DNA of 64,000 nt from Gemmatimonadota bacterium (GCA_003169895.1 PNAE01000007.1:1426880-1490879), one strand, 5' to 3'; numbered from the stretch's first letter, positions 2,809-30,589 are shown. The notes: generated by a model from the sequence alone, not told the origin. Numbers and translations are program-made.

Positions 2809-3658
2809 GTATGACGATTGGCACAAACAGAACATGGAACTGGTTGGTCCTCGCCTTGAACCGGCCGAAGGCGATCAGGACATCGTTCGGCAGCGAGTAG
2901 TCCTGCTTTCCCAGTACAAAGACTTTCTTGATCAACAACACTACGCGGAGCAGTTCGATTCTCGGTCGAATCTTCATTCGTCCGTGTTGGAGGAGTTTCT
3001 GTACTACTTGTTCAAAGATCTCGTCGGCGACTTCGGAGAGACGGCGCTATTGGGAAAGTCGCATACGTTCAAGGATATGTTCTTTGTTCCACCGAATTAC
3101 AAGTCGCTCGTCGAGCGTCCCTATGCTACCCTCGAAACGAAGGACCATGACTTTGTGATTGGTACCTCGGTGACCGCACGATTGCAGGCTTCCGTGCCTG
3201 TCGATCCCCCGGAGGATGCCGCCGATCCGGCCGAGGTGGCGGATGAACACCAAGACCCATATCTGCCCCGGGTCGTCGGTGCGGAGGAAGTACATCGTTT
3301 TGATCTTCCGGCCGTTGCAATCGAGTGCAAGACTTATCTCGACAAGACGATGCTTGAGGGAGCATCACGCGCTGCCGAGGAACTGAAGGCCCGGGTTCCG
3401 ACCGCCATCTGCGTTGTAGTAATGGAATGGCTAAAACTCACTGAGGCCGTCAACCTGCGAAAGTACAAGGTCGATCAGATCTACGTGCTTCGCCGCCAAC
3501 GAAACACTGATCGAGAGTTCCGATACGCCGAGGATTATGACAAGAGTCCAATTGATGCCGACGTCGTGTGGCACTTGTTTTCGATGGTCCGAAGCCACCT
3601 AGCCGCGGACTGGCAGGGCGGCACGGCGTTCGGCCTTGAGCGAGGGTGGCTGATCTAG
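2765..3658 (+). CDS. putative type II restriction endonuclease, PD-(D/E)XK fold
   Basis: The ORF (track 2708-3658) overlaps the 3' end of dcm. The first ATG is at 2765; an alternative ATG is at 2834. It has a nuclease-like signature KDHDFVIG ... VAIECKTYLD (D...ExK) and forms a classic MTase-REase pair. Family and recognition site cannot be identified by eye. Confidence 0.6.
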   Translation: MDEESRRYLQEIRPRYDDWHKQNMELVGPRLEPAEGDQDIVRQRVVLLSQYKDFLDQQHYAEQFDSRSNLHSSVLEEFLYYLFKDLVGDFGETALLGKSHTFKDMFFVPPNYKSLVERPYATLETKDHDFVIGTSVTARLQASVPVDPPEDAADPAEVADEHQDPYLPRVVGAEEVHRFDLPAVAIECKTYLDKTMLEGASRAAEELKARVPTAICVVVMEWLKLTEAVNLRKYKVDQIYVLRRQRNTDREFRYAEDYDKSPIDADVVWHLFSMVRSHLAADWQGGTAFGLERGWLI

Positions 3659-3784
3659 CGTTGCTGGTCGATGTTCGCCGCAAACCAGGGCGTGAAGTCC
3701 GGCTCTTCATGCTTCCGCACGTCACGCAATTACCGCGATTGTAGCGTAGGCTTCCCCTTGTCGGTCACGGCGCAAAGTAGACTT

Positions 3785-5257
3785 TCAATTTTCTGGGGGG
3801 AGGTCAATCCCGTCGGCCTTTGGCAACGTTTCCACGATCGGTACGGGGTTCACGTCGCCCGCAACTAACTCCGCTGCGGCTGCGAGTCGTGGCGACGCAT
3901 CGATCGGCTCAAGGATCTCGATCTCTTCCCCAGGTCCGACTCCCAAGGCGCGTAACCGCCGTGCCGCCGGCAGCGCGCGGGTTTCGAGTGACCCTACCGC
4001 GGCGTTGTACGCGTTCACCGCCCCCTCCAATCCCTTCTTCACCCTCAGGAGGTGCTCGCCTATGGTGCGCATGCGGGCATATAGGTCCATCGCCGCGTCG
4101 CGGATCTGCTCCGTATTCCGGGCAACGCGCTCCTGTTGCCACCCATAGAACACTGCCTTGAGAACGGTCACCAGCGTCGTGGGGCTGGCAGGGATAACGC
4201 CCCGACTCAATGCGAACTCAATCAGTCTCGGATCTCGTTGGCAGGCGGCGCTGAAGAATGCTTCGCCAGGCAGGAACATGACTACGAAATCGGGCGCCTC
4301 GGTGAACTGGTTCGCATAATCCTTGCTCGCAAGCGTTGAGACATGGTTGCGTACCTGTTTGGCGTGTTGGTCAAGGAAGAGTCCCCGCTCGTCATCGTCG
4401 GTGGCTTCCATCGCGTCCAAGTACGCCGAGAGCGGTGCTTTCGAGTCGACGACAACCACCTTCTCGCCCGGTAGCCGGACAATCAGGTCGGGTCTCAGGC
4501 GGCCGTTGTCGCCTTGCACCGTCTCCTGCTCTACGAAATCGCAATGCTCCAACATTCCCGCCAGTTCCACTACTCGTTTCAGCTGCAGCTCGCCCCATTG
4601 TCCTCGCACTTGTGGCGCCCGCAACGCCCGGACGAGCATCTGGGTCTCGCCAGTGAGTTGCTGCTGGGCTTCGGCCATTGACCGAAGATGCTCCTGCAAC
4701 GACGCCGCACTGATGGCGCGCTCCTTGTCAAATGCTTGGAGCTTCTCGTCGACCCGCTGCAGCCCCTCCTGCATCGGCTTTACCAGTTGATCGATCGCCA
4801 GTTGCCGGCCCTCGATGTCTGACTTCGCCGCCTGCTGAAATTCTCCCATCGAGGCCTTGGCCAGATCGAGAAATGCCCGGTTATTGGCCTGCAGCGCTTG
4901 AGCAGACAGCGCTGCAAACGCCTCGCGCAGCTTGGCCTCGGCTTGGTCAATCGCCCCTAGCCGTTCCTGTGCACTTTGGCGTTCGCTCTCCAATGTTGCC
5001 TTCAGGCGCTCCCTGTCGCCCTCCGCGGTCGCCACACGGTCGCGGAGTACCTCGAACTCAGCGCGCTGCGCACCGACTGCTTGCGCATGGCCGTCGGCCG
5101 CGTGTTGGGCTGCTGCTCGAACGCCCTCAAGTTCACGGTCGCGTTCATCCAACCGCACTTGCAACTCTGTTCTACGCCGAGAGCCAAGGGACCATCCCAA
5201 CCCGCCCGCCGCTAAGGCTCCAACTAGAGCGAATGCGACCCAGGCAAGTTCAGGCAT
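3785..5257 (-). CDS. rmuC: DNA recombination protein RmuC (N-terminal TM, coiled coil, C-terminal nuclease-like domain)
   Basis: N-terminal hydrophobic helix (WVAFALVGALAAGGLGW) followed by a long coiled coil. The conserved RmuC core is present: LPGEKVVVVDSKAPLSAYL ... DFVVMFLPGEAFFSAA ... SPTTLVTVLKAV. It starts 38 nt after the upstream ATPase stop on the same strand. Confidence 0.85.
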   Translation of the reverse strand: MPELAWVAFALVGALAAGGLGWSLGSRRRTELQVRLDERDRELEGVRAAAQHAADGHAQAVGAQRAEFEVLRDRVATAEGDRERLKATLESERQSAQERLGAIDQAEAKLREAFAALSAQALQANNRAFLDLAKASMGEFQQAAKSDIEGRQLAIDQLVKPMQEGLQRVDEKLQAFDKERAISAASLQEHLRSMAEAQQQLTGETQMLVRALRAPQVRGQWGELQLKRVVELAGMLEHCDFVEQETVQGDNGRLRPDLIVRLPGEKVVVVDSKAPLSAYLDAMEATDDDERGLFLDQHAKQVRNHVSTLASKDYANQFTEAPDFVVMFLPGEAFFSAACQRDPRLIEFALSRGVIPASPTTLVTVLKAVFYGWQQERVARNTEQIRDAAMDLYARMRTIGEHLLRVKKGLEGAVNAYNAAVGSLETRALPAARRLRALGVGPGEEIEILEPIDASPRLAAAAELVAGDVNPVPIVETLPKADGIDLPPEN

Positions 5258-5295
5258 ATCCGACTCTCCGTTGTGGTTTTAGCGCAGAAGTATCC

Positions 5296-7656
5296 TTACG
5301 AACCCTTTCCATAGCGCCAACGAAGCTGCCCGCATTGGCATTGCATCCATTCTGAGGCTCTTGCGTTGGTCAACCAAACGGCCTTCCCGCACGATACGCA
5401 CTTGAACATCGAAATCGCTAACTCGCATGCATCGATTAGCTTGCTAGCTTCAGCGGGAACAAGGTCAAACGAATGGGAACCACGGTTTCCCCACGAGAGT
5501 AGAAGGCGATCGGCATTGACGAATGCATCAAGCGCCTCGGTGAAGGTCTCATAGTTTCCTCCGACCCTCTTTTCAAGACACTTCCGTCCATCACCAATCA
5601 GGCGTTCCAGGAACTCATGTGCCATGCGTTTGTCGTTCTTTTCGCCTCGCAAATAGAGCAGCCTGATTTGTAGGCGTTCAGCAATAGGAGCAAGTTCAAC
5701 ATCCATGATCTTCCGGGCGTCGTTGCCCGCCGAATCAGGGCGATCCTTGAGGTGCGAACGCGCGTCGTCGAACGTCGTCGTCTTGTGGGACCAGCGAATC
5801 CCTAGGTCGGGCGTCTCATACGGCAGAAGCGCTTTGAACCCCCAATTCCGTTCGTCAAGTTGTTGCCGGAGTTCGGTGTACCACTCGCGGTCGTGGGTGA
5901 GGATAATGACCTGTCGATCGCCGAATTCCTTCTCGAGAAGGTCAACGATCATCCCCCGGTGATCGCGATCTAGACTCACTACAACGTCATCCAAGAATAC
6001 CGGTCGGTCGTTGACGGCTTCTCGTTGTGCCATGGCCAGAAAAATGCAGAGTCCAAGGCAATTACGATTACCTTCTGAGAGCGTTAGCCTGGGTGAGTCT
6101 TGCTCAATCCCGTAGAATGTGAGGCCGATGTCGATCGCCTTGTCCGTGTCGGGTGGGACGTAGAGCCGCACGTTTTCAATGCCTCCGTGAGGGTGGAGGA
6201 TTCCCCACATCGATCGGATGGCCGCTGAGATCTCGTCGATCACTGCTTGGGCTTGGATCCTAATTTCATCCCGCGTTCCCGCTTCCAAGGCCCGAATGAA
6301 CGATAGGAGGGCTTCTGCTCGAGCTAAAGCTTTCCGCAGTTCGGCGGCTCTAAGCAACGCCTTACCTGCATCAACAACTTGTTTGGCAGCCGATAGCTGT
6401 TGAGCGTCGGCTGGCGCCTCCCGCGAGGCCGCGGCGGCCGCATGGATTAGTGGCACGAGTCTTTGCTGAATGTCATTGAGCTCCGCCTCCCCGCACGAAC
6501 CCCTGAGGGAGTCAATATTGATACCCTCAAGGTGTGCCAGATGCGCACCCGATGGCCCGGCGGCCAGGGCATCTCGCCACGATCGCACATCTGGTTTCTC
6601 CAGTGCGGCTTTGAGGTCTCGGACGGTATCGCAGAGGGTTCCGAATGCGGCCTTTCGCTTCTCGAACACATCGATGAGTCGTACAAGACGCCTGCGTTCA
6701 GACTCCACGTGTTCTCGAAAGTGCAGAACGGAGATGAGGCGCCCACAAGCTGGACAAGTTACCGCCTCTTCGTCTGTCAATCCTTCGACGTAACTGGCGG
6801 TAGATTGCAACACCTCGAGTTTCTCGACCAGCAGAGGCTCCACAGCACCGACCAACTGGGCGTTCAAGTCTCGCGCGGCTCCAACTTGGCCGTCGAGATC
6901 CAGAGCGGCAGCGCCTATTAGGATGACGTGCCGGCGTTGGTCAATCGAGGACCCTGCCACTCGGGAGGCAATAGCTGTGGTAAGATCCTCGCAAAGGGGT
7001 AGTGGCTCGCGGGAATCCGGTTCACCGGGACAGTAATGGGTATGAAGCTCCTTGATCTTGGCGACTACCTCCTCGTCGGTGGCGGACCCAAAGACGGCCT
7101 GACGTACATTCTCCAGCTGTCCTAGCGCGCCTCGTGTCTCTGCAATGCGCGATTGTTCCTCAATTGACCTTGCCAGTTGACGGAGGTTTTCGGCTGCCAC
7201 CTCCATGTGGTGCAGCCCCAAGAGCGGAAGGAGCGCAGAGTACTTGACACCCTTGGTGTCACGAATGAACGCGGCTACCTCGTCTTGCCGCAGAACTGTG
7301 CGGCGATAGTCCCAGTTCGTCATGGAGGCAGATTCGCCACCGGAGCTCGTAGAGGTGCCGTTCGGCATGATTTGAATGGCCAGCATGGAGTCGTCTTGGA
7401 ATGTGAGCCGCAGCTCCGTCTGGCGGTTCTGTGGAGTACGGCGGTTCGGAATGGCCTTCTCCTGGCGTCTGCCGCTGTACTCATGGGCGAGGTGCTCGAT
7501 CTTCCCATTGTGGAGCACGTACTCGATGGCGTCCACAAAGGAAGACTTGCCCGCGCCATTCGTGCCGTATACCACGAGTGACTTGCAGGAGGTATCCAAG
7601 GTCACCGAGTCCGCGGCGCCGCGGAACCATGCCAATTCTACGGCCTTTATCCTCAC
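5296..7656 (-). CDS. SMC/Rad50-like ABC ATPase with CxxC hook and C-terminal extension (PrrC/RloC-like or Lamassu LmuB-like)
   Basis: Walker A GTNGAGKSSFVDAIEYVL and an ABC signature LSEGNRNCLGLCIFLAMAQ. Walker B/D-loop is VFLDDVVVSLD, followed by ILTHD. A roughly 450-aa helical insert carries TCPACGRL. The C-terminal ~190 aa contain NDARKIMD ... GNRGSHS and a terminal zinc ribbon CVSCG...CQCG. Confidence 0.8.
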   Translation of the reverse strand: MRIKAVELAWFRGAADSVTLDTSCKSLVVYGTNGAGKSSFVDAIEYVLHNGKIEHLAHEYSGRRQEKAIPNRRTPQNRQTELRLTFQDDSMLAIQIMPNGTSTSSGGESASMTNWDYRRTVLRQDEVAAFIRDTKGVKYSALLPLLGLHHMEVAAENLRQLARSIEEQSRIAETRGALGQLENVRQAVFGSATDEEVVAKIKELHTHYCPGEPDSREPLPLCEDLTTAIASRVAGSSIDQRRHVILIGAAALDLDGQVGAARDLNAQLVGAVEPLLVEKLEVLQSTASYVEGLTDEEAVTCPACGRLISVLHFREHVESERRRLVRLIDVFEKRKAAFGTLCDTVRDLKAALEKPDVRSWRDALAAGPSGAHLAHLEGINIDSLRGSCGEAELNDIQQRLVPLIHAAAAASREAPADAQQLSAAKQVVDAGKALLRAAELRKALARAEALLSFIRALEAGTRDEIRIQAQAVIDEISAAIRSMWGILHPHGGIENVRLYVPPDTDKAIDIGLTFYGIEQDSPRLTLSEGNRNCLGLCIFLAMAQREAVNDRPVFLDDVVVSLDRDHRGMIVDLLEKEFGDRQVIILTHDREWYTELRQQLDERNWGFKALLPYETPDLGIRWSHKTTTFDDARSHLKDRPDSAGNDARKIMDVELAPIAERLQIRLLYLRGEKNDKRMAHEFLERLIGDGRKCLEKRVGGNYETFTEALDAFVNADRLLLSWGNRGSHSFDLVPAEASKLIDACELAISMFKCVSCGKAVWLTNARASEWMQCQCGQLRWRYGKGS

Positions 7657-7961
7657 TCTTTGGTCGGAGTTTCAGGTTGGGAGGAGCCCATAGCATTTAG
7701 AAGCTCTTGGGCAGTTCTCTTGAGCAACGCCGCCGGCAGTGCATGGTCGCTTAGGTCCCGCAGTAGCAGCGTACTCATTAGAGCGATTGCATCCACCGTG
7801 ACCGACGGATGCTCGTTCCGCGCCTGGGACAAGCGCGCTGCAACCCATGTTTGGTCATCTGCCATCGGTCGAGACTCCACAGACGCCAATAAATTCCACG
7901 GCCGGTCTTCCGAACGCCACCTAACGACCTCCGCTTCTGGTTCGGCGCCGCAGCGACACAC
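7653..7961 (-). CDS. small hypothetical protein, translationally coupled to the ATPase
   Basis: 102-aa ORF whose stop overlaps the ATPase start by 4 nt (7653-7656). A more likely ATG at 7865 gives a 70-aa product, MADDQTWVAARLSQ... No recognisable domain. Confidence 0.4.
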   Translation of the reverse strand: MCRCGAEPEAEVVRWRSEDRPWNLLASVESRPMADDQTWVAARLSQARNEHPSVTVDAIALMSTLLLRDLSDHALPAALLKRTAQELLNAMGSSQPETPTKE

Positions 7962-8056
7962 TGCCGCGACGCGTCGTTGACCTCACCACATCACCGGAAC
8001 TTCGGCCCGCGGTGCGGGGCGCCGGCGCCGGCAGCGGCAACCGCCGGTTAGGTGCA

Positions 8057-8896
8057 TCACTTCCGTGCTACGCCCGGCTTGAATTCGAAGTCATATACAA
8101 CCTTTGCCTCACGCGCGACTTCCTTGATGATGTACTCATCCCGAGGAGCATCAGATCCGAGAAGTTCATGCAATAGATAGAGGCGAGCCTGCTCGGTCTT
8201 GCATTGCGGGAATCGTGCGTCCGCGGCGGCTTGACGTGCCACGTCTGTTTTCTTCTGTCGCGTCCAGAGCTTCCGCTCGGCTTGATGCGCCTCCCACTCG
8301 GGATCAGGCGGCGAGTTAAGCACTTCGCCGTCGTGCGGAGCGAACAGGAGGTCGTACCATTTCGCCGTCAACGCGAAACGGAGAATCAACTCGTTCGTGC
8401 TAACGAAAATGTCCACCGCGACTGACGCGGCCTGACCCACGTGTCGAGTGCACTCGCGCACGTGGCTGACAGTCTCCGCGTCGGCACCACGCTCCTGCAG
8501 CTGATCAAGCGCGTCTTGAACGTCCTCAGCTGTAAGCTCATGTACGGTTAGCACGACAACGGTTGGCTTGAGCTTGCCGGCAGTGGCCAAGAAGGGCGCG
8601 ACGTCTTTCGGCGAGTTGACCTCCGCGAAACACACGGCGATCGGAGCTTCCTTGTCAAGCAGTCCCCGAACCACCGGGAGATTATGCGCCTCGGCCCAGC
8701 CGATCACGGAGTCCACCACCTGCTGAACTGAGTCGCTCGCAACTTCTGGCATCTGATGTCTCCTCCCGGCACGGGCCCAAACGGCTGACACGGCCGTTGA
8801 GGCTTGGTCGAGGCCGCCCGGCTCGGTGACAAGGCTTCCACTCATGAAGTCGAAGGCCTGTGTGGGAGAGGACTGACGGCGTCGTGTTGTCATCAA
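8057..8896 (-). CDS. hypothetical protein (279 aa), first gene of the ATPase/RmuC transcription unit
   Basis: Long ORF on the same strand, 95 nt upstream of the small ORF. An ATG at 8893 lies immediately downstream of the TATAAT-containing repeat element. No motif recognised by eye. Confidence 0.55.
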   Translation of the reverse strand: MMTTRRRQSSPTQAFDFMSGSLVTEPGGLDQASTAVSAVWARAGRRHQMPEVASDSVQQVVDSVIGWAEAHNLPVVRGLLDKEAPIAVCFAEVNSPKDVAPFLATAGKLKPTVVVLTVHELTAEDVQDALDQLQERGADAETVSHVRECTRHVGQAASVAVDIFVSTNELILRFALTAKWYDLLFAPHDGEVLNSPPDPEWEAHQAERKLWTRQKKTDVARQAAADARFPQCKTEQARLYLLHELLGSDAPRDEYIIKEVAREAKVVYDFEFKPGVARK

Positions 8897-8915
8897 GAAC
8901 TCGTGTGCCAGCTTG

Positions 8916-9013
8916 CTCGCAATTATACAGCGAAGCGGCGGCTTAGGCTGCTGAATTGAGGCCGTCCGTCAGTAACAAGGACGCTTGTCCGCGAACCCGG
9001 GGAGGCGAGCCTC
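8916..9013 (-). promoter_or_regulatory. repeated promoter-like element, copy 1 (TATAATTGCGAG core plus upstream CCCGGGTTCGCG..CAAGCG.CCTTGTT block)
   Basis: The minus strand reads ...GAGGCTCGCCTCCCCGGGTTCGCGGACAAGCGTCCTTGTT-N38-CTTCGCTGTATAATTGCGAGCAAG, about 25 nt before the ATG at 8893. The TATAAT is the complement of 8922-8927. Paralogous copies lie at 10484-10580 and 12337-12355. Confidence 0.55.
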
Positions 9014-9088
9014 TTGCCAACTGGGCCTGTGAACGCGACCTGGAGCCCAAAGTGGCGTCGTTGCTGTTTTGTGGGCGGCATCCGCATG

Positions 9089-10438
9089 CTAGCTTGCCGT
9101 CTTCGGACGTGCCCAATTGCAATAGCGATGAGTAAGCCGAGCGTTGTCAGGCACCGTTGCTCCCCCAAGCCAGTACATCTTGACGTGGTCCACCGCCGCA
9201 TCGTCGATTTCAGCAATGTGCTGGTCGCAGAGAGAGCAGGTCGGGTTGTTATCGAACAATCGCTGCTTCAATTCTCTCGAGAAACAGCGCGGCTGATTCG
9301 TCGTTGACTGAAGCACCGACTCAAGTGCGGTTCTCCACCGATCAAAGCGAAGCTGTATGGACTTGATTGAGCTCGTCGACAGCTCGATCGCCTCAATGAA
9401 CTCTTGATCGTCGGTCATAATGGAGAGTAGCGCCTCCCGAATCGAATCGAGGCACGCCATGACCCGGTTCTTATCAACCCGCGCCATGGACCACATCAAC
9501 ACGTCGTAGATTGAAGCGTTGAACTTCTTTGCCTCCCAACGACCGTTCGGCGATTTTCCGTCTCCTCGGTAGAACCTCTTGAACGCGTTCTTACCAAGAA
9601 GAGAACGGACAAGTGCGACGGCGTTCTTGAACGCTTTGGCAAGCTCGGTCGCGTCCTGAGGCGATATCTCTTGGTACCGCTTCATATCTTCATTCATGAA
9701 GCGCTCCATCGACGGCCGGTAGTTCAAATAGCTCGCATGATAGAACGCTGAAAAGCGTAAGACGTACTCAACGTCTTTCATGCGTTTCTCGGGGCCCTTG
9801 AAGCCCATGCTTGCCATGTAGTCTGGGTCGCGCGACAATTCGTGAAGGAGGTCGTTGTACGGGCCGCGGTAGATGCAGTTGCGCAGTTCTTGTGCGTTCA
9901 GCGGCATTGCCCCAGTATTCAGCCGTTCGAAGATCTGAAAGCGGAGGCTTTCGTCCGACTCCTTCTTGAAAACGATAGTCCGAACAGAGCAGTTCCGGAG
10001 CTGCTTCTGGTAGTTCTCATCCAAATCCTGATACGTCTTCCCATTCAGAGTGCGCCATTCCTTCAATCCCTTTAGGGCAAACCCATTGTCAAGATACCTG
10101 AAGAAGGCGTTCAATCTCTGTTGCCCGTCGATGACCTCTTCGGTCCCATCCTGGTTTTCAGCGAGATAGAAGATTGGCAGCGGTACTTCGAGCAACGCAG
10201 ACTCGATTAGCCGACTTGAACGAGCATCATCCCATACCTTGCGGCGTTGAAATGTCGGATTGAGCACCAAATCGCCTGACTTGAAGCTCTGATGGAGCCC
10301 ACTGACCTTGGGATCCAGCTTGTCGGTGAAGATTCGACGGCGACCGTCATCCGCCCCGGGGGATTCGTCATCCACATCGGCATCCACCTCATCCTCAAAA
10401 AGCTCTTCAAGATCTTGAAAGTCATCATGGTTCTTCAC
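9089..10438 (-). CDS. DUF262 (ParB/GmrSD-type DGQQR NTPase) - HNH endonuclease fusion; putative type IV (modification-dependent) restriction enzyme
   Basis: The N-terminal part has the DUF262 hallmark EVIDGQQRLNAFFRYL. The C-terminal part is an HNH/His-Me finger with a Zn site: CSLCDQHI...DHVKMYWLGGATVPDNARLTHRYCNWARP. GTG start at 10438. Lower-GC codon usage (K/N/I/F/Y rich). Confidence 0.85.
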   Translation of the reverse strand: MKNHDDFQDLEELFEDEVDADVDDESPGADDGRRRIFTDKLDPKVSGLHQSFKSGDLVLNPTFQRRKVWDDARSSRLIESALLEVPLPIFYLAENQDGTEEVIDGQQRLNAFFRYLDNGFALKGLKEWRTLNGKTYQDLDENYQKQLRNCSVRTIVFKKESDESLRFQIFERLNTGAMPLNAQELRNCIYRGPYNDLLHELSRDPDYMASMGFKGPEKRMKDVEYVLRFSAFYHASYLNYRPSMERFMNEDMKRYQEISPQDATELAKAFKNAVALVRSLLGKNAFKRFYRGDGKSPNGRWEAKKFNASIYDVLMWSMARVDKNRVMACLDSIREALLSIMTDDQEFIEAIELSTSSIKSIQLRFDRWRTALESVLQSTTNQPRCFSRELKQRLFDNNPTCSLCDQHIAEIDDAAVDHVKMYWLGGATVPDNARLTHRYCNWARPKTAS

Positions 10439-10483
10439 GTCTAACGCCCCTTTCTTGCAGCTGCCGGACCACGATCAGGCTAA

Positions 10484-10580
10484 CTCACAACTATACCACG
10501 AAGTTGCAACGTCGGCCGTTGAACTAGCGCGCTCATCACGAACAAGGCCGCTTGCGCGCGAACCCGGGCAACCGAGCCTC
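10484..10580 (-). promoter_or_regulatory. repeated promoter-like element, copy 2
   Basis: The minus strand reads GAGGCTCGGTTGCCCGGGTTCGCGCGCAAGCGGCCTTGTT-N37-CTTCGTGGTATAGTTGTGAGTTAG (TGgTATAGT is an extended -10 type). It ends about 45 nt upstream of the DUF262-HNH start. The spacing between the two blocks matches copy 1 (38 vs 37 nt). Confidence 0.55.
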
Positions 10581-10816
10581 AAGCCCAACCCAGCGTGAGG
10601 GCCGGAAGCGCCGACAACGTGTTACCTATGTTCCCGGCTTACTTCGTCACCGATCTGCCCCGATTGTTCACCGAGTCACGAGCGGCGCGAAGGCGCTCAA
10701 GTTCAGCGCGGCCGCCAGCAGCAAATGCTTGTTAGGCTGCCACTTCTCAATCATGGTGGCGCTTCTCCATTTCTTCAGGGAACGGGCATGTCGCGAATAC
10801 TGCCAAGCGTATCGCA

Positions 10817-11524
10817 TCACCCGTTGCCCATCGATTTCTCCCACTCAAAGTACGGATTTCTGTGGCCTGCGACGACCATGTTCACGAATATGCTGTGGTT
10901 GAGGGCATCCATGGGCCCAGGCAAGAGGCTTCCCAGGCCAAGCATGCTTCGGACCTGGTCCTCCTCCCAAATGAGCATTGACGTGATGAACGGCCGCAAC
11001 CAGTCTTTGTCGTTGTCGAGATCGTCGAATTCAATACGCACACAATTGAAGCCATTTAGGTAGTAGAGAAGGACCAGGCATCGTGAGTTGCAAAACGAGA
11101 TTAGTTCATCGCTGGATAGGTCGGGATGTTTCCACTTGAACTCCCGAAGCCCACCATGGTGCTCGACCATCTTATCGATGTGCCGGTATAACACACCTGA
11201 AATGTACGGGGAGTCAGAATAATAGGCGTTGCGCTTCTCCTCCTCAGTCAGACAGAGCACCTGGTAACCAGTGTATTCAATCACGTACGAGGCGAGGAGT
11301 TCGCGCATCGCGAGGAATGGGTTTTCTGCTAGCGACAAACCTCCGACGGCGTTGTAGAAATCGCGTACGATCTTGTCCTTGGTCTCGGTGGTGAGGTTGG
11401 CGAGACGCGGGTACTGCGTAAAGTACTCTTGCGTATGCGCTGCGAGTGCCTTTCCAATTGTAGAGGCCTTCCAGAGGCGAATGGCTTGCTTCTCTTTCAA
11501 ACGATTGAGGAATGCCCGGATCAT
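10817..11524 (-). CDS. hypothetical protein (235 aa), partner of the upstream protease
   Basis: ORF 85 nt downstream of the protease gene on the same strand, in a low-GC, K/N/Y/F-rich region. No signal peptide and no recognisable catalytic motif. Confidence 0.6.
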   Translation of the reverse strand: MIRAFLNRLKEKQAIRLWKASTIGKALAAHTQEYFTQYPRLANLTTETKDKIVRDFYNAVGGLSLAENPFLAMRELLASYVIEYTGYQVLCLTEEEKRNAYYSDSPYISGVLYRHIDKMVEHHGGLREFKWKHPDLSSDELISFCNSRCLVLLYYLNGFNCVRIEFDDLDNDKDWLRPFITSMLIWEEDQVRSMLGLGSLLPGPMDALNHSIFVNMVVAGHRNPYFEWEKSMGNG

Positions 11525-11608
11525 TGCCTCTACCTCTGTTTGCGTTTACAGCCCTGAGATTCCGCTGCCGCGCCGGCACGCTCGCCCTCGGTCGGCAGTA
11601 AGCGCTTG

Positions 11609-12343
11609 TCAGACTGCGCCTGAAATGATGTCAGAATGTATCCGTCTGATGATCGCGTAGATTCGCGAAGAATCAATGAAATGACAGATCTCCCCTCCTG
11701 CCTCCACGATCATTCCAACAAATCCGAAGGAAGGTGGATTGAATGCGTAGACCGGAGAACCACTGATACCGGCCCAGGACGCGAGATCGGCTCGCGGCTT
11801 CAAAGCAGCTCGATGGAGATACTTCCGCTGCGCATCCGGCGCCAGGTACTCAAGATTAAGCGTGAGTGTCTTGGCCGATATCTGACGAACGTCATAGTCT
11901 ATCGCACAGGTCTCACCCGGACACGCAGCTGCCTCGAGGGATGCTCCGGCGGCTAACGCCGACCCTCCGCGTCCGACCACCATATCGCCGAGAGGCAGCG
12001 AGTGCTCTCGTAGTCGCGGGGCATCCGCTTCCGCCTTAGACAGGTCGAACGGAAAGACGGCAACATCGTCGGCATCAATTCCAGATTTCGGAACCATCAT
12101 GCTCGTCAGAGGTAGTCCAATGTTGCTATCGTGTGGAAGGATCAAAAAGTCAGTGGGATTGAGATTACGCACTACGTGTGCAGCTGTAATGAATGCACCC
12201 ATGTTCTCGTAAATGGCAATAAAGCCAGCTCCTCCGAGGAAGTATGGGTAGGGCGAATCCGGTGCTTCCACGATAAGCGGACGAGTAGCATCGAATAAGG
12301 TGGCAGTGTTCAGCGGTTCCTCCGGTTCGCACCTAACTCGCAA
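11609..12343 (-). CDS. cytoplasmic trypsin-like (S1/chymotrypsin-fold) serine protease
   Basis: The catalytic triad context is readable: FITAAHVV (His), DADDVAVFPF (Asp), WAGISGSPVY (GxSGxP Ser). No signal peptide. The TTG at 12343 lies inside the conserved TATAATTGCGAG element, so the real start is probably downstream. Candidates are the in-frame CTG at 12313, 5 nt after GGAGG, or the GTG at 12271. Confidence 0.7.
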   Translation of the reverse strand: MRVRCEPEEPLNTATLFDATRPLIVEAPDSPYPYFLGGAGFIAIYENMGAFITAAHVVRNLNPTDFLILPHDSNIGLPLTSMMVPKSGIDADDVAVFPFDLSKAEADAPRLREHSLPLGDMVVGRGGSALAAGASLEAAACPGETCAIDYDVRQISAKTLTLNLEYLAPDAQRKYLHRAALKPRADLASWAGISGSPVYAFNPPSFGFVGMIVEAGGEICHFIDSSRIYAIIRRIHSDIISGAV

Positions 12344-12355
12344 TTATACCGCGAA
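12337..12355 (-). promoter_or_regulatory. repeated promoter-like element, copy 3 (core only)
   Basis: The minus strand reads CTTCGCGGTATAATTGCGAGTTAG, matching copies 1 and 2. It is followed about 20 nt later by GGAGGA and the protease ORF. Upstream similarity to copy 1 (CGGACG...CTCA) continues weakly to about 12470. Confidence 0.5.
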
Positions 12356-12470
12356 GTGGCGGGTTCGGATGTTGAGCCTGAGCGAGTCGTCCGAGACATG
12401 ACTGCCGGGGACCTCGTTCGAGATCGACTTGAGGTCCGACGGTGCGGCCAACTTCACCTCACGTTAAGCG

Positions 12471-12583
12471 GCATGAGGTCGTGAATTCGAGTGGAGTGGC
12501 CAAAGGTGTCCAATTAGGCGTGAGGTCAAATCGACCTCGACTACCGAAAAGGCGTGAGGTTTGGAGTGGCCAATAGAGTGGCC
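12471..12583 (+). repeat. degenerate tandem fragments related to the tRNA-Ile 3' half (GCRTGAGGT and GAGTGGCC motifs)
   Basis: GCATGAGGTC at 12471, GCGTGAGGTC at 12518 and GCGTGAGGT at 12552 precede the well-preserved copy at 12700. GAGTGGCC occurs at 12494, 12564 and 12576, and again at 30541 next to the second tRNA remnant. Confidence 0.5.
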
Positions 12584-12692
12584 AAATAGCCCGCGAGGGT
12601 CCGATCTCACGAAAAAGCGATCCGGGCGGATCACGCGAACTGTCAATGAGTTAGCGGTTTTTTCGCGGGATGCGGACCCCCCGTTTTACGAG

Positions 12693-12734
12693 CTGATAAG
12701 CGTGAGGTCGGAGGTTCAACTCCTCCCAGGCCCA
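12693..12734 (+). pseudogene. tRNA-Ile(GAU) 3'-half remnant (anticodon loop to discriminator), att-like
   Basis: The sequence CTGATAAGCGTGAGGTCGGAGGTTCAACTCCTCCCAGGCCCA parses as anticodon loop CU-GAU-AA, 3' anticodon stem, AGGTC variable loop, T-arm GGAGG/TTCAACT/CCTCC, and acceptor CAGGCCC+A. It closely resembles the E. coli tRNA-Ile 3' half. No matching 5' half (GGGCCTG...) lies upstream. Confidence 0.7.
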
Positions 12735-12748
12735 CTGATCGAAAGCAT

Positions 12749-12791
12749 AAGTCCCGCATCGCGTTACCGACTGTGCGGGACTTCGCTTTTT
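12749..12791. terminator. intrinsic-terminator-like hairpin (bidirectional)
   Basis: AAGTCCCGCA-N15-TGCGGGACTT forms a 10-bp stem followed by CGCTTTTTC on the plus strand. The minus strand has TTATGCTTTC after the stem. It lies 15 nt after the tRNA remnant and about 80 nt after the stop of the minus-strand kinase (12868). Confidence 0.55.
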
Positions 12792-12867
12792 CATCGATTC
12801 TGTGCTGGAGTGTCTCGGCGCCTGCGGTCAACCGCGGCGGCTGAGGCCGACCCTACCTGCGGGGCGA

Positions 12868-15537
12868 TCATGGCCGTGTCGCCGCCGGCGCGGTCGAGTC
12901 GGCGTGCTGGAAGATCATCGGCCAGTGCTGGAGGTAGGCCACCGCGAGGCCGGTCGAAGACTGACGCAGAAGATATCGCTCGCCGTCGCCGCCGACGGCG
13001 AAACCGGTGCCGTTATCGTCAAAGGTGGAGCGCCGCCACGTTGGTACCGAAAACAGAGTGCGCGGCGTCCCGGGAGGCGCGCCCGCAGCAGCGATGTCCG
13101 CCACCTGCACGCGGCCGTCAGGCGTGAGGTATGTCAGTTGCCGACCACCATGCGTCCAGGCGGGCCAGCGACCGCCCTCAAGCGAAACCCGCAACGGTGG
13201 ACCGGAAGGCAGCGGCTGTACGTACACCTCATACCGGTCGGTTTCGTCGGACGTGTACGCGACGGAGTGGCCATCAGGGGAAAAGCGCCCATCCGACACT
13301 CGTCCCGGACGGATGATCGATTGCGTCTCGGCGCTACCATCCACCGGGATGATGCGGAGCGTACTGTCCTGTCGCACGAGCAGGAAACGACCGTCTGGCG
13401 ACCAGTCGAGTGGGAACCGGCATTCGCTGTTGCTGGAAAGCGTCGAGATTTCCTTGCCGACGACCCGCTCGACGCTCGTGCGGAGATCGCGATCCACGAT
13501 GCGACAACGATTGCCCCCGCGCATGGCGTAGACGAGGTGCGTGCCGTTGCCGTTGAAGGCCGGATGAGTGGTACCGAATGCGAAACCGGTCGTCGGAAAG
13601 GTGCTGTCCTGCACCAGGACCCGGGTGCCGCGGTTGGCATCGAGATCGTAGAGCCAGATGCCGGCGGTGTTGCCGGCGACAGCTACCATGGCCGGGCCGC
13701 CTCGCGCGGGTCGGACGCTCATAGTCCAGGCGCCATCTACCCGTACGGTGTCCCGGAGCAGCCCGCTGGCATCGTAGACGAGATACGGCCGGTCCTGCCC
13801 GCCGGGGAGGAATGCCAGCACGCCGTTCGACGACACCGCGAAGGTATGGATGCCCGCCTGGGCCCGGACGTCATTGGCGGCCCGGACTACCGGCCCTTCA
13901 AGTGCCAGTGAATTCAGGTTCAGTCGCTGTGCATCAAGGGCGCGCACGTCATTCTGGCTCGCCTTGAGCAGGTAGCCCGGGGCGACGACCGAGAATTCAA
14001 CCGTCCGGACCGGGAGCGTCGCGACGGTCTTCCCGTCAAGACTTGCCGCGATCATGTCGGTGAATTGGCCACGGGCAATCAGCATCCGTTTTCCGTCGGG
14101 AAGAAAGAGTCCCTTGAGCGACGGGCCGGAGCCGCGAGGAACCACGACCTTGCACGTTCCGCCGTCCGCTGGCACCGTCGAAATGCCGTCGCGATGCCCG
14201 AAGAGGATCAGCCCCAACTTGCTCCACGAACCTCCGGTTGCGTCGGCTACTGGGCAAAGCCTCCGCACCTGTCCGTTCGGCTCCGCCACCAGGAGAAACC
14301 CGCCGGCGAAAAATCCCAGCGATCGCCCATCGGGCGACCAGAATGGTGCGTTGGCGCCGTTCGAGCCATTCACGGGCTCGGCGTCCAGGCGATCAACGCC
14401 GCGCACCCAGAGGTTCCGCGACCCGTCCGCTGCGGCAAACACGAATGCGAGGCGACGACCATCCGGCGATAGCGCCAGCGACCGTTGCTCCCCGAAGCTG
14501 CCGCCAGCCGGGGCAAGGATCGACGTGGCCGTGAGTGCTCCGCTGCTCGCTTGACCCGTTCGCCACGGCCGCGCGGCCAGAATGCCGACGACCGCACCGC
14601 CGAGGGCGAGCGCCACGGCGGCAGCGATGACGAGTGGCCGGTTCCTCTTTCGCGTCCCATTGCTCGACGACCCTGTGCTCCGGCGTACGTGCATCTTGAC
14701 TGCGGGCGCGCCACCTTCGCGCAGTGCCGCGCCGAAGTCGGCGGCGGTTGCGAATCGATCTGCCGGCAACTTCTCGAGCGCGTGCAGCACCGCCGCCTCG
14801 ACGTGCTCGGGGACGGCCTTCCGTTGGGCCACGATCCCCCGGGGGTCCTCCGTGATCAGGCGCGCGACGATCGCCTGGACGCTCGGTCCCGTGAATGGTG
14901 GTTCGCCCACGAGCATTTCGTAGGTCACCGCACCGAGCGAGTAGATGTCGCTTCGTGCGTCGATGGCGCGCTCGCCCATGGCCTGTTCGGGGGACATGTA
15001 TTGTGGCGTGCCAAGCGAGAGTCCAGTCTGGGTCATCCGCTGTCCGCCGGCGGTCTGCACCGCGAGCGCGATGCCGAAATCGGCGACCAGTGCGTGGCCA
15101 TCCTGCAGCAGGATGTTCTCCGGCTTGATATCACGGTGAATCACGGCGCGCCCGTGCGCGTAGCTCAGTGCGTCCGCGACTTCCCGCGCAATGCGCATGG
15201 CGTCATCCACCGGTAGCTGGCGCTCGCGTTCGAGGCGAGTGCGCAGTGTTTCGCCGGTGACGAGCGGCATCACGTAGTACAGCAGTCCTTCGGCTTCGCC
15301 GCTGTCAAGCAGCGGCAGGATGTGCGGGTGCTGCAGCGCCGCCGTGGTCGTGATCTCCTGCACGAAGCGATCGGCACCGAGCACGGCAGCCAGTTCGGGC
15401 TTCAGGACCTTGATGGCGACCTTGCGCTTGTGCTTGAGGTCCTCGGCGAGATACACCGTCGCCATGCCGCCCTGGCCCAGTTCGCGGTCGATGCGGTAAC
15501 GGTCGGAAAGGGCCTCCCGAAGGCCGTCACGGCTCAT
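12868..15537 (-). CDS. Ser/Thr protein kinase with TM segment and C-terminal PD40/TolB-like beta-propeller repeats
   Basis: Hanks motifs GQGGMATVYLA, VAIKVL, HRDIKPENILL, DFGIA, YMSPEQ. A TM helix follows (LVIAAAVALALGGAVVGILAA), then repeated WSPDG-type blades (FWSPDGRSL, DWSPDGRFL, RFSPDGHSV). Confidence 0.9.
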   Translation of the reverse strand: MSRDGLREALSDRYRIDRELGQGGMATVYLAEDLKHKRKVAIKVLKPELAAVLGADRFVQEITTTAALQHPHILPLLDSGEAEGLLYYVMPLVTGETLRTRLERERQLPVDDAMRIAREVADALSYAHGRAVIHRDIKPENILLQDGHALVADFGIALAVQTAGGQRMTQTGLSLGTPQYMSPEQAMGERAIDARSDIYSLGAVTYEMLVGEPPFTGPSVQAIVARLITEDPRGIVAQRKAVPEHVEAAVLHALEKLPADRFATAADFGAALREGGAPAVKMHVRRSTGSSSNGTRKRNRPLVIAAAVALALGGAVVGILAARPWRTGQASSGALTATSILAPAGGSFGEQRSLALSPDGRRLAFVFAAADGSRNLWVRGVDRLDAEPVNGSNGANAPFWSPDGRSLGFFAGGFLLVAEPNGQVRRLCPVADATGGSWSKLGLILFGHRDGISTVPADGGTCKVVVPRGSGPSLKGLFLPDGKRMLIARGQFTDMIAASLDGKTVATLPVRTVEFSVVAPGYLLKASQNDVRALDAQRLNLNSLALEGPVVRAANDVRAQAGIHTFAVSSNGVLAFLPGGQDRPYLVYDASGLLRDTVRVDGAWTMSVRPARGGPAMVAVAGNTAGIWLYDLDANRGTRVLVQDSTFPTTGFAFGTTHPAFNGNGTHLVYAMRGGNRCRIVDRDLRTSVERVVGKEISTLSSNSECRFPLDWSPDGRFLLVRQDSTLRIIPVDGSAETQSIIRPGRVSDGRFSPDGHSVAYTSDETDRYEVYVQPLPSGPPLRVSLEGGRWPAWTHGGRQLTYLTPDGRVQVADIAAAGAPPGTPRTLFSVPTWRRSTFDDNGTGFAVGGDGERYLLRQSSTGLAVAYLQHWPMIFQHADSTAPAATRP

Positions 15538-15546
15538 GGGTATGCC

Positions 15547-30547: not shown

Positions 30548-30589
30548 CTGATTAGCGTGAGGTCGGAGGTTCAACTCCTCCCAGGCCCA
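30548..30589 (+). pseudogene. tRNA-Ile(GAU) 3'-half remnant, second copy (att-like direct repeat)
   Basis: CTGATTAGCGTGAGGTCGGAGGTTCAACTCCTCCCAGGCCCA is 41/42 identical to 12693-12734 in the same orientation. It is preceded by GAGTGGC, and no 5' half is present. Confidence 0.7.

What the first reader, a model, noticed from the sequence alone, without database searches (positions are those of the whole stretch)
8916..12470. The three minus-strand units of the island each begin with a paralogous ~20-100-nt element (CTTCG-N3-TATAATTGCGAG-T/C-T/A-AG)
Minus-strand reading of the three core copies:
- copy 1 (8935-8916): CTTCGCTGTATAATTGCGAGCAAG;
- copy 2 (10503-10484): CTTCGTGGTATAGTTGTGAGTTAG;
- copy 3 (12355-12337): CTTCGCGGTATAATTGCGAGTTAG.
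Copies 1 and 2 also share a second block, GAGGCTCG..T.CCCGGGTTCGCG..CAAGCG.CCTTGTT. It lies at a fixed distance (38 vs 37 nt) upstream and contains the small inverted repeat ACAAG-N4-CTTGT.
Each copy lies 20-45 nt upstream of the first ORF of a unit (279-aa gene, DUF262-HNH, protease). A weak fourth match (CACGCAATTACCGCGATTG, 3723-3741) lies just past the rmuC stop.
Inference: unrelated defence modules sharing one promoter/operator suggests common regulation by an unseen repressor. Alternatively it points to a cassette-like assembly mechanism in which each module brought, or was given, the same 5' adaptor.
Basis: seen in the sequence. Interest (0 to 1): 0.6.

Follow-up and report, generated by a model that had tools for sequence, protein, structure and literature searches.

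The report
Duplicated promoter before three defence operons
Three unrelated anti-phage gene units in a 17-kb mobile island each sit behind a diverged copy of the same short promoter-like sequence; this is a small, local case of promoter reuse, not a new kind of element.

Summary
CTTCG-N3-TATARTTGYGAG occurs three times on the minus strand (8916-8935, 10484-10503, 12337-12356), against 0.04 expected. Copies 1 and 2 share about 108 nt (71%). Copy 3 shares about 46-70 nt. The only two TATAAT hexamers in the 64 kb lie in copies 1 and 3.

Similarity ends a few bases past the expected transcription start. The downstream genes are unrelated: an uncharacterised 279-aa gene plus a LmuB-like ATPase and RmuC, a NsnA/DUF262-HNH gene, and a weakly trypsin-like ORFan pair.

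I found no RNA structure, no Rfam match, no -35 box and no terminal inverted repeats. No clearly related copy turned up in the window, 8.5 kb of left flank, GTDB genomes, viral contigs, plasmids or phages. One ambiguous hit came from a peat metagenome. NsnA orthologues at 71-88% identity lack the element, so it was not imported with that gene.

The units are cargo of a roughly 17-kb integrative island. It has perfect 45-bp tRNA-like direct repeats, a tyrosine integrase and three HTH genes just outside the window.

Best reading: propagated promoter copies, possibly with an operator, giving island-level co-expression. Transcription was not tested. The "fourth copy" is not significant. Interest is modest.

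The parts
8906..9044 (-). Element copy 1. Core CTTCGCTGTATAATTGCGAGCAAG at 8935-8912, with TATAAT at 8927-8922. Upstream block 2 (GAGGCTCG..CCCGGGTTCGCG..ACAAGCGTCCTTGTT) within 9018-8969.
   Evidence: (nhmmer 130.8 bits)
10474..10611 (-). Element copy 2. Core CTTCGTGGTATAGTTGTGAGTTAG at 10503-10480, with TATAGT at 10495-10490. Block 2 within 10585-10536.
   Evidence: (128.0 bits)
12332..12403 (-). Element copy 3, the shorter one. Core CTTCGCGGTATAATTGCGAGTTAG at 12356-12333, with TATAAT at 12348-12343. No block 2. It abuts the arm-type repeats and attR of the island.
   Evidence: (29.6 bits against the copy 1+2 profile)
8057..8896 (-). Unit 1, gene 1: 279-aa protein of unknown function. Only one homologue was found (50% identity). 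No Pfam, PADLOC or PDB match; the AlphaFold model is poor.
7653..7961 (-). Unit 1, small ORF: 102 aa at its longest. Gene callers use a 70-aa version at 7653-7865.
5296..7656 (-). Unit 1: 786-aa SMC/Rad50-like ATPase, LmuB-like (the Lamassu ATPase).
   Evidence: (LmuB E=3e-23)
3785..5257 (-). RmuC-family protein, 38 nt downstream of the ATPase gene. Probably the last gene of unit 1.
9089..10438 (-). Unit 2: 449-aa DUF262 (GmrSD_N) plus HNH protein, NsnA-like.
   Evidence: (NsnA E=1.2e-92)
11609..12343 (-). Unit 3, gene 1: ORFan of 220-244 aa with a weak trypsin-like signal. The start codon is ambiguous.
   Evidence: (Trypsin_2 E=0.0078, below the curated cut-off)
10668..11524 (-). Unit 3, genes 2 and 3: 235-aa protein (10817-11524) and an overlapping 49-aa ORF (10668-10817). 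Neither has a family match.
12692..12736 (+). attR of the island: 45-bp perfect direct repeat GCTGATAAGCGTGAGGTCGGAGGTTCAACTCCTCCCAGGCCCACT, which looks like the 3' half of a tRNA. The identical left copy lies outside the window, at L072 4302-4346.
3723..3741 (-). Not distinguishable from background.

Best explanation
The three elements are diverged copies of one promoter region. Each drives one of three unrelated operons in the cargo part of a roughly 17-kb integrative island.

The working part is a strong -10 box (TATAAT or TATAGT). There is no recognisable -35 box. An imperfect inverted repeat, RCT(T)CGY ... RYGAGY, brackets the -10 and could be an operator. Copies 1 and 2, which follow another unit, also keep a 50-nt upstream block at a fixed 37-38 nt distance. 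That block is either an upstream regulatory site or the 3' end signal of the preceding unit.

The copies arose by duplication or recombination of non-coding DNA inside the island (promoter propagation). For the NsnA unit at least, the copy was not imported with the gene it now precedes.

The expected result is similar, probably coordinated, expression of the three units. Transcription from these sites and any co-regulation are inferred, not shown.
For: **Shown**
- Three copies against 0.04 expected.
- Pairwise BLAST E-values of 4.5e-13, 3.4e-6 and 2e-4.
- All three copies are in gene orientation, in intergenic DNA, 15-60 nt before the first start codon of a unit.
- The downstream proteins share no similarity.
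- The only two TATAAT hexamers on either strand of the 64 kb are in copies 1 and 3. Copy 2 holds one of the three TATAGT hexamers.
- Similarity among copies ends 10-12 nt after the -10 box, about at the expected transcription start. The shared part is therefore upstream DNA, not a leader.
- The core and block 2 are better conserved than the 37-38 nt between them.
- NsnA orthologues at 88, 79, 78 and 71% identity lack the element. Similarity to the 88% orthologue's upstream region covers only the last ~45 nt before the start codon and none of the element.
- The only homologue of the 279-aa protein also lacks it.
- The stem positions around the -10 box pair in all 18 cells, with one change on both sides.

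**Context**
- The island carries its own integrase and three HTH proteins.
- A 2025 preprint reports co-expression of defence islands and suspects local HTH regulators.
- Families of homologous promoters in front of non-homologous genes are documented (PMC3488235).
Against: - No transcription data were available.
- No -35 hexamer sits at 16-18 nt, and the consensus scan does not call these sites. The island does use a canonical TTGACC-17-TAGCAT promoter elsewhere.
- No terminator-like site separates the units, so they could also be read through as one long transcript.
- Copy 1 has no Shine-Dalgarno sequence before its start codon.
- Three copies are too few to separate functional constraint from recent common descent. 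The pairing test is not significant: 164 of 500 shuffles do as well.
- Identity is below the published threshold for mobile promoters.
Confidence: 0.55

Rival explanations
1. Operator-centred reading, which is compatible with a promoter. What is conserved is chiefly a binding site for one island-encoded DNA-binding protein. That site would be the inverted repeat around the -10 box, or the ACAAG-N4-CTTGT block. The three units would then form a small regulon that is switched together, for example de-repressed on phage attack or island excision.
For: - An imperfect inverted repeat brackets the -10 box in all three copies.
- The bipartite conservation has a fixed spacer.
- There is no -35 box, which suggests dependence on a factor.
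- Proteins of 215, 127 and 103 aa sit next to the integrase. The 215-aa one has HTH matches above Pfam's cut-offs; the other two have only weak HTH_17 hits below the cut-off.
- Coordinated expression of defence islands has been reported.
Against: - Block 2 and its palindrome are missing from copy 3.
- The half-sites are short and differ in copy 2.
- No copy of either motif occurs in front of the HTH/integrase operon or the restriction-modification operon.
- The pairing test has no statistical power.
- No regulator gene lies inside the three units.
Confidence: 0.2
2. Cassette-junction reading. The repeats are scars or substrates of the recombination that inserted the units one after another, for example by single-crossover insertion of a circular element-plus-gene piece. 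On this reading the -10 box is secondary.
For: - Direct repeats in one orientation sit at each unit boundary.
- The NsnA unit is flanked by the two most similar long copies, with 1567-1568 nt start-to-start spacing.
- The units differ in GC content, 53-62%, which suggests separate origins.
- NsnA orthologues lack the element.
- The setting is a mobile island with a tyrosine recombinase.
Against: - There is no similarity to the island's att repeat (p>0.1).
- The single strands show no fold signal on either strand (z between -0.9 and 0).
- By inspection, no integron-type GTTRRRY core is present.
- The integrase is about 13-17 kb away and is not arranged like an integron.
- All 16 contig loci fetched for this island from different samples are 100% identical to the window where they overlap it, apart from one length variant at 7928-7993 in L054. 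None has a different order or number of units.
- The supposed terminal fourth copy is not significant.
Confidence: 0.12
3. Small non-autonomous repeat (REP- or MITE-like) that happens to lie between genes. Any promoter activity would be incidental.
For: - It is a short repeated intergenic sequence of 46-140 nt.
- Assembly contig L054 starts 7 nt before copy 3.
Against: - Only three copies exist, all within 3.5 kb. There are none in the other ~60 kb of the window or in 8.5 kb of left flank.
- There are no terminal inverted repeats and no stable hairpin.
- The 49 GTDB-genome hits and 7 viral hits to the core pattern match only the seeded bases.
- There is no match in the plasmid or phage collections.
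- All copies share one orientation and position relative to gene starts.
Confidence: 0.06
4. Transcribed RNA or single-stranded DNA hairpin with the TATAAT in its loop, acting as a leader, processing site or nicking site.
For: A stem of six pairs plus one bulge is kept in all three copies through one double change and two G-U changes.
Against: - Folding energies do not differ from shuffles.
- There is no Rfam match at E<=1.
- The shuffle control reaches the observed values in 164 of 500 trials.
- The island encodes no HUH or relaxase-type protein.
- If the TATAAT is the -10 box, the stem is not transcribed.
Confidence: 0.04

Closest known systems
Putative mobile promoters / promoter propagation (Matus-Garcia, Nijveen and van Passel, Nucleic Acids Res 2012, PMC3488235)
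   Same: [quoted passage not shown]
- The family is small (2-3 members), which that paper attributes to duplication by recombination rather than transposition.
   Different: - The copies here are more diverged than the published cut-off of at least 80% over 50-100 nt. Here it is 80% over 46 nt and 71% over 108 nt.
- All copies lie within 3.5 kb of one mobile island, in front of consecutive units at least two of which carry defence-type genes.
- They are not scattered over a chromosome.
Island-level regulation of defence systems by local regulators (WYL/BrxR family, PMC9122601 and PMC9122589; CapW-type regulators of CBASS; co-expressed defence islands, bioRxiv 10.64898/2025.12.14.694197)
   Same: Several unrelated defence systems sit side by side, and one regulatory input is plausible. 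DNA-binding proteins are encoded in the same island.
   Different: - No WYL, BrxR or CapW-type gene was seen next to any of the three units.
- Here the evidence is a shared cis-element, not a shared regulator gene.
- No binding or expression data exist.
Integron cassette arrays (attC sites)
   Same: Unrelated genes lie in one orientation, separated by copies of a related short sequence, in a mobile context that includes a tyrosine recombinase.
   Different: - The repeat lies 5' of each unit and carries a promoter-like box. Integron cassettes are usually promoterless, with attC at the 3' end.
- There is no hairpin-forming imperfect palindrome and no GTTRRRY core.
- The integrase is far away and not adjacent to an attI/Pc arrangement.
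tRNA-gene-targeting integrative genomic islands (the context, not the element)
   Same: - There is a tyrosine integrase at one end.
- Perfect 45-bp direct repeats match the 3' part of a tRNA, from the anticodon loop to the discriminator base.
- Arm-type-like repeats lie inside both ends.
- GC content is lower than in the flanks.
- The cargo includes anti-phage genes.
   Different: - No intact tRNA gene is present in the window or in the 8.5 kb to the left.
- A third, slightly degenerate copy of the repeat lies 17.8 kb to the right, beyond housekeeping-like genes.

Membership tests
Putative mobile promoter family (PMC3488235) | Homologous non-coding sequence within 100-150 nt upstream of the start of predicted transcription units | tested here: met
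   The cores end 15-60 nt before the first start codons of three units.
Putative mobile promoter family (PMC3488235) | Downstream coding sequences are not homologous | tested here: met
   All-against-all BLASTP of the unit proteins gives no pair with E<0.5.
Putative mobile promoter family (PMC3488235) | At least 80% nucleotide identity over 50-100 nt | tested here: not met
   Identity is 80.4% over 46 nt (copies 1/3), 71.3% over 108 nt (copies 1/2) and 73% over 52 nt (copies 2/3). These would count only as the paper's 'diverged copies' (E<1e-4).
Sigma-70-type promoter | -10 hexamer close to TATAAT | tested here: met
   The hexamers are TATAAT, TATAGT and TATAAT. They include the only two TATAAT in the window.
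Sigma-70-type promoter | -35 hexamer close to TTGACA, 16-18 nt upstream | tested here: not met
   The consensus scan does not call the sites. The hexamers at 16-18 nt are CAGCCT, CGGCCG and CATCCG by inspection. The conserved TTCARC lies 22 nt upstream.
Sigma-70-type promoter | Transcripts start 6-8 nt downstream of the -10 hexamer | not testable with these tools
   No RNA data were available.
Integron attC site / cassette array | Imperfect palindrome that folds as a single strand, bounded by RYYYAAC and GTTRRRY | tested here: not met
   Fold z-scores lie between -0.9 and 0 on both strands. No GTTRRRY or RYYYAAC sits at the element ends, by inspection.
Integron attC site / cassette array | Integron integrase with attI and Pc next to the first cassette | tested here: not met
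   The only recombinase is a generic Phage_integrase protein at L072 4455-5633, about 13-17 kb from the three copies, next to the island's att repeat.
REP / MITE-type dispersed repeat | Many dispersed copies in the genome | tested here: inconclusive
   There are no further copies in about 72 kb of this genome. The rest of the genome could not be scanned.
REP / MITE-type dispersed repeat | Palindromic body or terminal inverted repeats | tested here: not met
   Neither the repeat search nor the folds show any.
Known RNA family (Rfam 15) | Match to a covariance model | tested here: not met
   The only hit in 3000-16000 at E<=1 is a sub-threshold Plastid-ycf2 match at 12674-12735, which is the tRNA-like att repeat.
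tRNA-targeting integrative island (context) | Tyrosine integrase plus flanking direct repeats that match a tRNA 3' part | tested here: met
   The 45-bp repeats are 100% identical, at window 12692-12736 and L072 4302-4346. The integrase lies beside the left repeat. Logan contig L074 (16,947 nt) starts and ends inside the two repeats.
tRNA-targeting integrative island (context) | Intact target tRNA gene at one end | tested here: not met
   ARAGORN finds no tRNA or tmRNA in the window or in L072-L074.
Lamassu defence system (unit 1) | LmuB SMC-like ATPase together with a recognisable LmuA effector and LmuC | tested here: inconclusive
   The LmuB models match at E=3e-23 and 1.5e-22. The 279-aa and 102-aa proteins match no LmuA or LmuC model. 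The structure model of the 279-aa protein is poor, with no fold match.

The most novel reading that the evidence does not exclude
The island uses its own promoter/operator as a plug-in adaptor. Each newly captured defence module would be placed, by recombination at the element, behind a copy of one island-specific control sequence. That sequence would be read by an island-encoded HTH protein, so the whole cargo is switched as one regulon. The same sequence would then serve both as the recombination substrate for cargo turnover and as the regulatory site.
Probability: 0.1. Interest if true: 0.55.

Novelty: new member of a known kind. Interest (0 to 1): 0.3.

Why it matters
Expression studies now suggest that neighbouring defence systems are switched together, but the DNA signals behind this are mostly unknown. 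This case offers a concrete candidate: a shared promoter or operator that arose by copying non-coding DNA inside a mobile island.

If transcription starts and a binding protein were confirmed, three things would follow:
- A small, tractable example of how islands wire in newly acquired cargo.
- A usable promoter for an Acidobacteria-type host.
- A search handle (the profile plus the att repeat) for related islands.

As it stands it is one local, three-copy case in an uncultured peat bacterium, with no relatives found elsewhere. It is useful as an annotation but not surprising to a specialist.

Tried and rejected
1. **Structured RNA.** Folding both strands of all three copies gave z-scores between -0.9 and 0. 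Rfam gave nothing relevant.
2. **Widespread motif.**
   - The scan of 185,579 species genomes gave 49 hits and the viral scan gave 7. They score only 8-20 bits against a 61-nt profile of the element, against 44-50 for the profile's own members. By eye their flanks are unrelated. The source genome is not among those representatives.
   - The stricter 24-nt pattern in JGI metagenomes gave one sequence, seen in two samples (L055/L056). It lies about 47-68 nt upstream of a class-3 lipase gene. It scores 23.6 bits against the three-copy profile. By my rough reckoning about 0.2-1 such hits are expected by chance. I treat it as possibly related, not as evidence.
3. **Plasmid and phage collections.** No match.
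4. **Elements as att sites of serial integrations.** Rejected. Local alignment to the 45-bp att repeat is no better than shuffles.
5. **Integrase relatives in viral contigs, as a route to sister islands.** Only relatives mostly at 19-37% identity were found, and none carries the element. The att repeat is absent from viral contigs.
6. **Orthologous loci.** Loci of five NsnA relatives and of the single 279-aa homologue were fetched. None has the element.
7. **Function of the 279-aa and 244-aa proteins.** Homologue searches found 1 and 0 relatives. PDB sequence searches were empty or irrelevant. AlphaFold models had mean pLDDT 58.5 and 35.1. Foldseek against the PDB found nothing below E=0.05.
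8. **Sigma-54, TTGCGA as a -35 box, and the Bacteroidetes TAnnTTTG motif.** I considered these by eye and dropped them because spacing or bases do not fit.
9. **Fourth copy at 3723-3741.** Background-level score.
10. **A mistake of mine.** In some searches I submitted 7749-7961, which is the N-terminal part of the 102-aa ORF, not the called 70-aa gene (7653-7865). The full ORF had already been searched without hits.

Full report
**1. The observation**

- **Core counts.** A search for CTTCGNNNTATAATTGCGAG with up to three mismatches finds exactly three sites: 8916-8935, 10484-10503 and 12337-12356. All are on the minus strand. Dinucleotide-preserving shuffles give 0.04 expected.
- **Repeat families.** The repeat finder gives a 46-nt three-copy family, and a 50-nt two-copy family (8969-9018 and 10536-10585) at 80% identity.
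- **BLASTN.** Copy 1 vs 2: 108 nt, 71%, E=4.5e-13. Copy 1 vs 3: 46 nt, 80%, E=3.4e-6. Copy 2 vs 3: 52 nt, 73%, E=2e-4.
- **Layout.** The two conserved blocks of copies 1 and 2 are separated by 38 and 37 nt of poorly conserved sequence.
- **Fourth match.** The match at 3723-3741 scores 14 in a gapped scan of the whole window. Several unrelated places score the same or higher, and nhmmer does not report it. I do not count it.

**2. What lies downstream**

Each copy sits in intergenic DNA in front of a separate group of minus-strand genes.

- **Copy 1.** It precedes a 279-aa protein with no family match, then a small ORF, a 786-aa SMC/Rad50-like ATPase and an RmuC protein. The ATPase matches PADLOC's LmuB models at E=3e-23.
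- **Copy 2.** It precedes a 449-aa DUF262-HNH protein that matches NsnA at E=1.2e-92.
- **Copy 3.** It precedes an ORFan of 220-244 aa, then a 235-aa protein and a 49-aa ORF without matches. The ORFan has only a weak Trypsin_2 hit (E=0.0078, below the curated cut-off).
- **Unrelated products.** The proteins of the three units show no similarity to each other.
- **"Defence module" label.** It is solid for unit 2. For unit 1 it rests on the LmuB-like ATPase and RmuC only. For unit 3 it is a guess.

**3. What the element is not**

- **Not a structured RNA.** Folding energies of both strands match shuffled controls. Rfam has no relevant hit.
- **Not a canonical -35/-10 promoter.** The consensus scan does not call it.
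- **Not a transposon-like repeat.** There are no terminal inverted repeats.
- **Not dispersed locally.** No further copy exists in the window or in the 8.5 kb to its left, with either a core profile or a long profile.
- **Not widespread.** A scan of 596 billion bases of species-representative genomes gave 49 hits to the core pattern, and viral contigs gave 7. These match only the seeded bases. Plasmid and phage collections have no match.
- **One ambiguous relative.** A stricter 24-nt pattern in JGI metagenomes found one sequence (L055/L056), about 47-68 nt upstream of a lipase gene. By my rough reckoning this is about what chance would give. The promoter-like position is suggestive but not more.

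**4. What points to a promoter**

- **The -10 box stands out.** In 64 kb at 64% GC, TATAAT occurs only twice on either strand, and both occurrences are in copies 1 and 3. Copy 2 has TATAGT.
- **Similarity stops near the start site.** The similarity among copies stops 10-12 nt after this hexamer, about where transcription would start. What is shared is upstream DNA, not a leader.
- **Orientation and position.** All three copies point towards the genes and lie 15-60 nt before the first start codon.
- **Uneven conservation.** The core and block 2 are better conserved than the spacer between them.
- **Block 2.** It is present only in the two copies that follow another unit. It could be an upstream regulatory site or the 3' end signal of the preceding unit.
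- **Inverted repeat.** An imperfect inverted repeat, RCT(T)CGY and RYGAGY, brackets the -10 box. All 18 cells pair, with one double change and two G-U changes. With three sequences, 164 of 500 shuffles do as well, so this is a lead only.

**5. Where the element came from**

The NsnA gene has many close relatives. I fetched the loci of five of them, at 88, 79, 78, 71 and 71% protein identity.

- None carries the element.
- Against the 88% orthologue, upstream similarity is limited to about 45 nt before the start codon. It begins near CCTGAT, directly after the end of the element. That stretch is only about 58% identical, so the breakpoint is approximate.
- The single homologue of the 279-aa protein also lacks the element.

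So for the NsnA unit the element did not travel with the gene. It was added, or exchanged, in this island.

**6. The wider context**

- **Source.** The window matches a Stordalen Mire metagenome-assembled genome (GCA_003167595.1) and several ENA and Logan contigs. All 16 contig loci I fetched for the island are 100% identical to the window where they overlap it, apart from one length variant in L054.
- **Left flank.** Extending to the left shows a tyrosine integrase and three small proteins next to it. One (215 aa) has clear HTH matches; the other two (127 and 103 aa) have only weak HTH_17 hits below Pfam's cut-off.
- **Direct repeats.** A 45-bp sequence that looks like the 3' half of a tRNA, from anticodon loop to discriminator base, occurs at window 12692-12736. 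It recurs, 100% identical, beside the integrase at L072 4302-4346. A Logan contig of 16,947 nt starts and ends inside these two repeats.
- **Arm-type-like repeats.** These lie just inside both ends of the island.
- **Composition.** The island has 58% GC against 65.5% in the rest of the window.
- **Conclusion on context.** The three units are cargo of an integrative island of about 17 kb. The element is unrelated to the att repeat.
- **A canonical promoter nearby.** The island also has a TTGACC-17-TAGCAT promoter in front of the HTH/integrase operon. The lack of a -35 box in the three elements is therefore a real difference.

**7. Mechanism**

Most likely (about 0.55) these are three copies of one promoter region, made by duplication or recombination of non-coding DNA inside the island. 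They would give the three cargo units similar expression.

A common repressor or activator is plausible, and candidates are encoded in the island. Nothing here shows binding.

A role of the repeat in cassette insertion cannot be excluded but has no positive evidence:
- no fold signal;
- no recombinase nearby;
- no population variant with a different order or number of units;
- no real terminal copy.

**8. Comparison with what is known**

- **Mobile promoters.** The closest description is the "putative mobile promoter" of Matus-Garcia et al. (PMC3488235). That is homologous DNA within 150 nt upstream of non-homologous genes, with small families ascribed to recombination. Position and non-homology of the genes are met. 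The identity threshold (at least 80% over 50-100 nt) is not met, so these are diverged members at best.
- **Island-level co-expression.** Co-expression of defence systems in one island, with suspected local HTH regulators, has been reported (bioRxiv 10.64898/2025.12.14.694197). WYL/BrxR-type regulators are the known examples (PMC9122601, PMC9122589). No such gene was seen next to any unit here.
- **Integron attC sites.** The defining features were tested and not met.

**9. Verdict**

The promoter reading is reasonable but untested. The repressor idea is open. For the NsnA unit, the idea that the module brought its own adaptor is contradicted.

This is a new, diverged example of a known phenomenon in an uncultured peat bacterium. 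Interest 0.3.

Noticed in passing
window 12692-12736 (+); L072 4302-4346; window 30548-30589 (+): A 45-bp tRNA-like 3' half (anticodon loop CTGATAA, T-arm GGAGGTTCAACTCCTCC, acceptor CAGGCCCA) forms perfect direct repeats that bound a roughly 17-kb island. A third 42-nt copy with one mismatch (A37 to T) lies 17.8 kb further right, beyond FtsH, amidohydrolase and molybdenum-enzyme genes. No intact tRNA or tmRNA gene was found anywhere in the window or the left flank.
   Followed up: partly
L072 4455-7167 (8.5 kb left of the window start): The island's integration and regulation module lies just outside the window. It holds a tyrosine integrase (392 aa), a 215-aa N-terminal HTH protein, two small proteins of 127 and 103 aa with weak HTH_17 hits, and a 64-aa protein with no match. 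Further left are a Dam-type methylase, a wHTH-calcineurin-associated protein and an ORC/CDC6-like protein, possibly a second island.
   Followed up: partly
window about 12480-12600 (-); L074 1-140: Short repeats TTGGCCACTC (x3) and CCTCACGCC (x2) lie just inside attR. Inverted GGAGTGGCCAAATGG-type repeats lie just inside the left att. They look like arm-type integrase binding sites. A similar ATGGCCACC lies in the spacer of the TTGACC-17-TAGCAT promoter of the HTH/integrase operon (L072 about 7190-7230).
   Followed up: no
window 7928-7993: Length polymorphism. In contig L054, 66 nt of a GC-rich repeat between the 279-aa gene and the small ORF are replaced by 32 nt. Contig L051 ends at the same place.
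   Followed up: no
window 12271-12343 (-): The start of the trypsin-like ORFan is unclear. The longest ORF starts at a TTG inside the element. A CTG at 12313 lies 5 nt after a perfect GGAGG. Gene callers chose GTG 12271, which has no ribosome-binding site.
   Followed up: no
window 3700-3785 (-): A TACAAT and a GGTAAT box point into the 3' end of the Bpu10I-like restriction gene. They lie in the 126-nt gap between the convergent rmuC and restriction-enzyme genes. This could be an antisense promoter of the restriction-modification system, which is pure speculation.
   Followed up: no
L159 6049-9880; L160 855-4686: A 71% NsnA homologue in another metagenome also sits beside a Trypsin_2 protein (254 aa) plus a partner of 251-259 aa. 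This echoes the window's NsnA next to its weakly trypsin-like pair, although BLASTP shows no similarity between the two protease pairs.
   Followed up: partly
window 1459-3658 (+): A Bpu10I-like restriction enzyme and a cytosine-5 DNA methylase form a convergent pair with the rmuC operon. They are part of the same island cargo. A Ser/Thr kinase plus TPR gene pair inside the island resembles the many kinase genes in the flanking chromosome.
   Followed up: no
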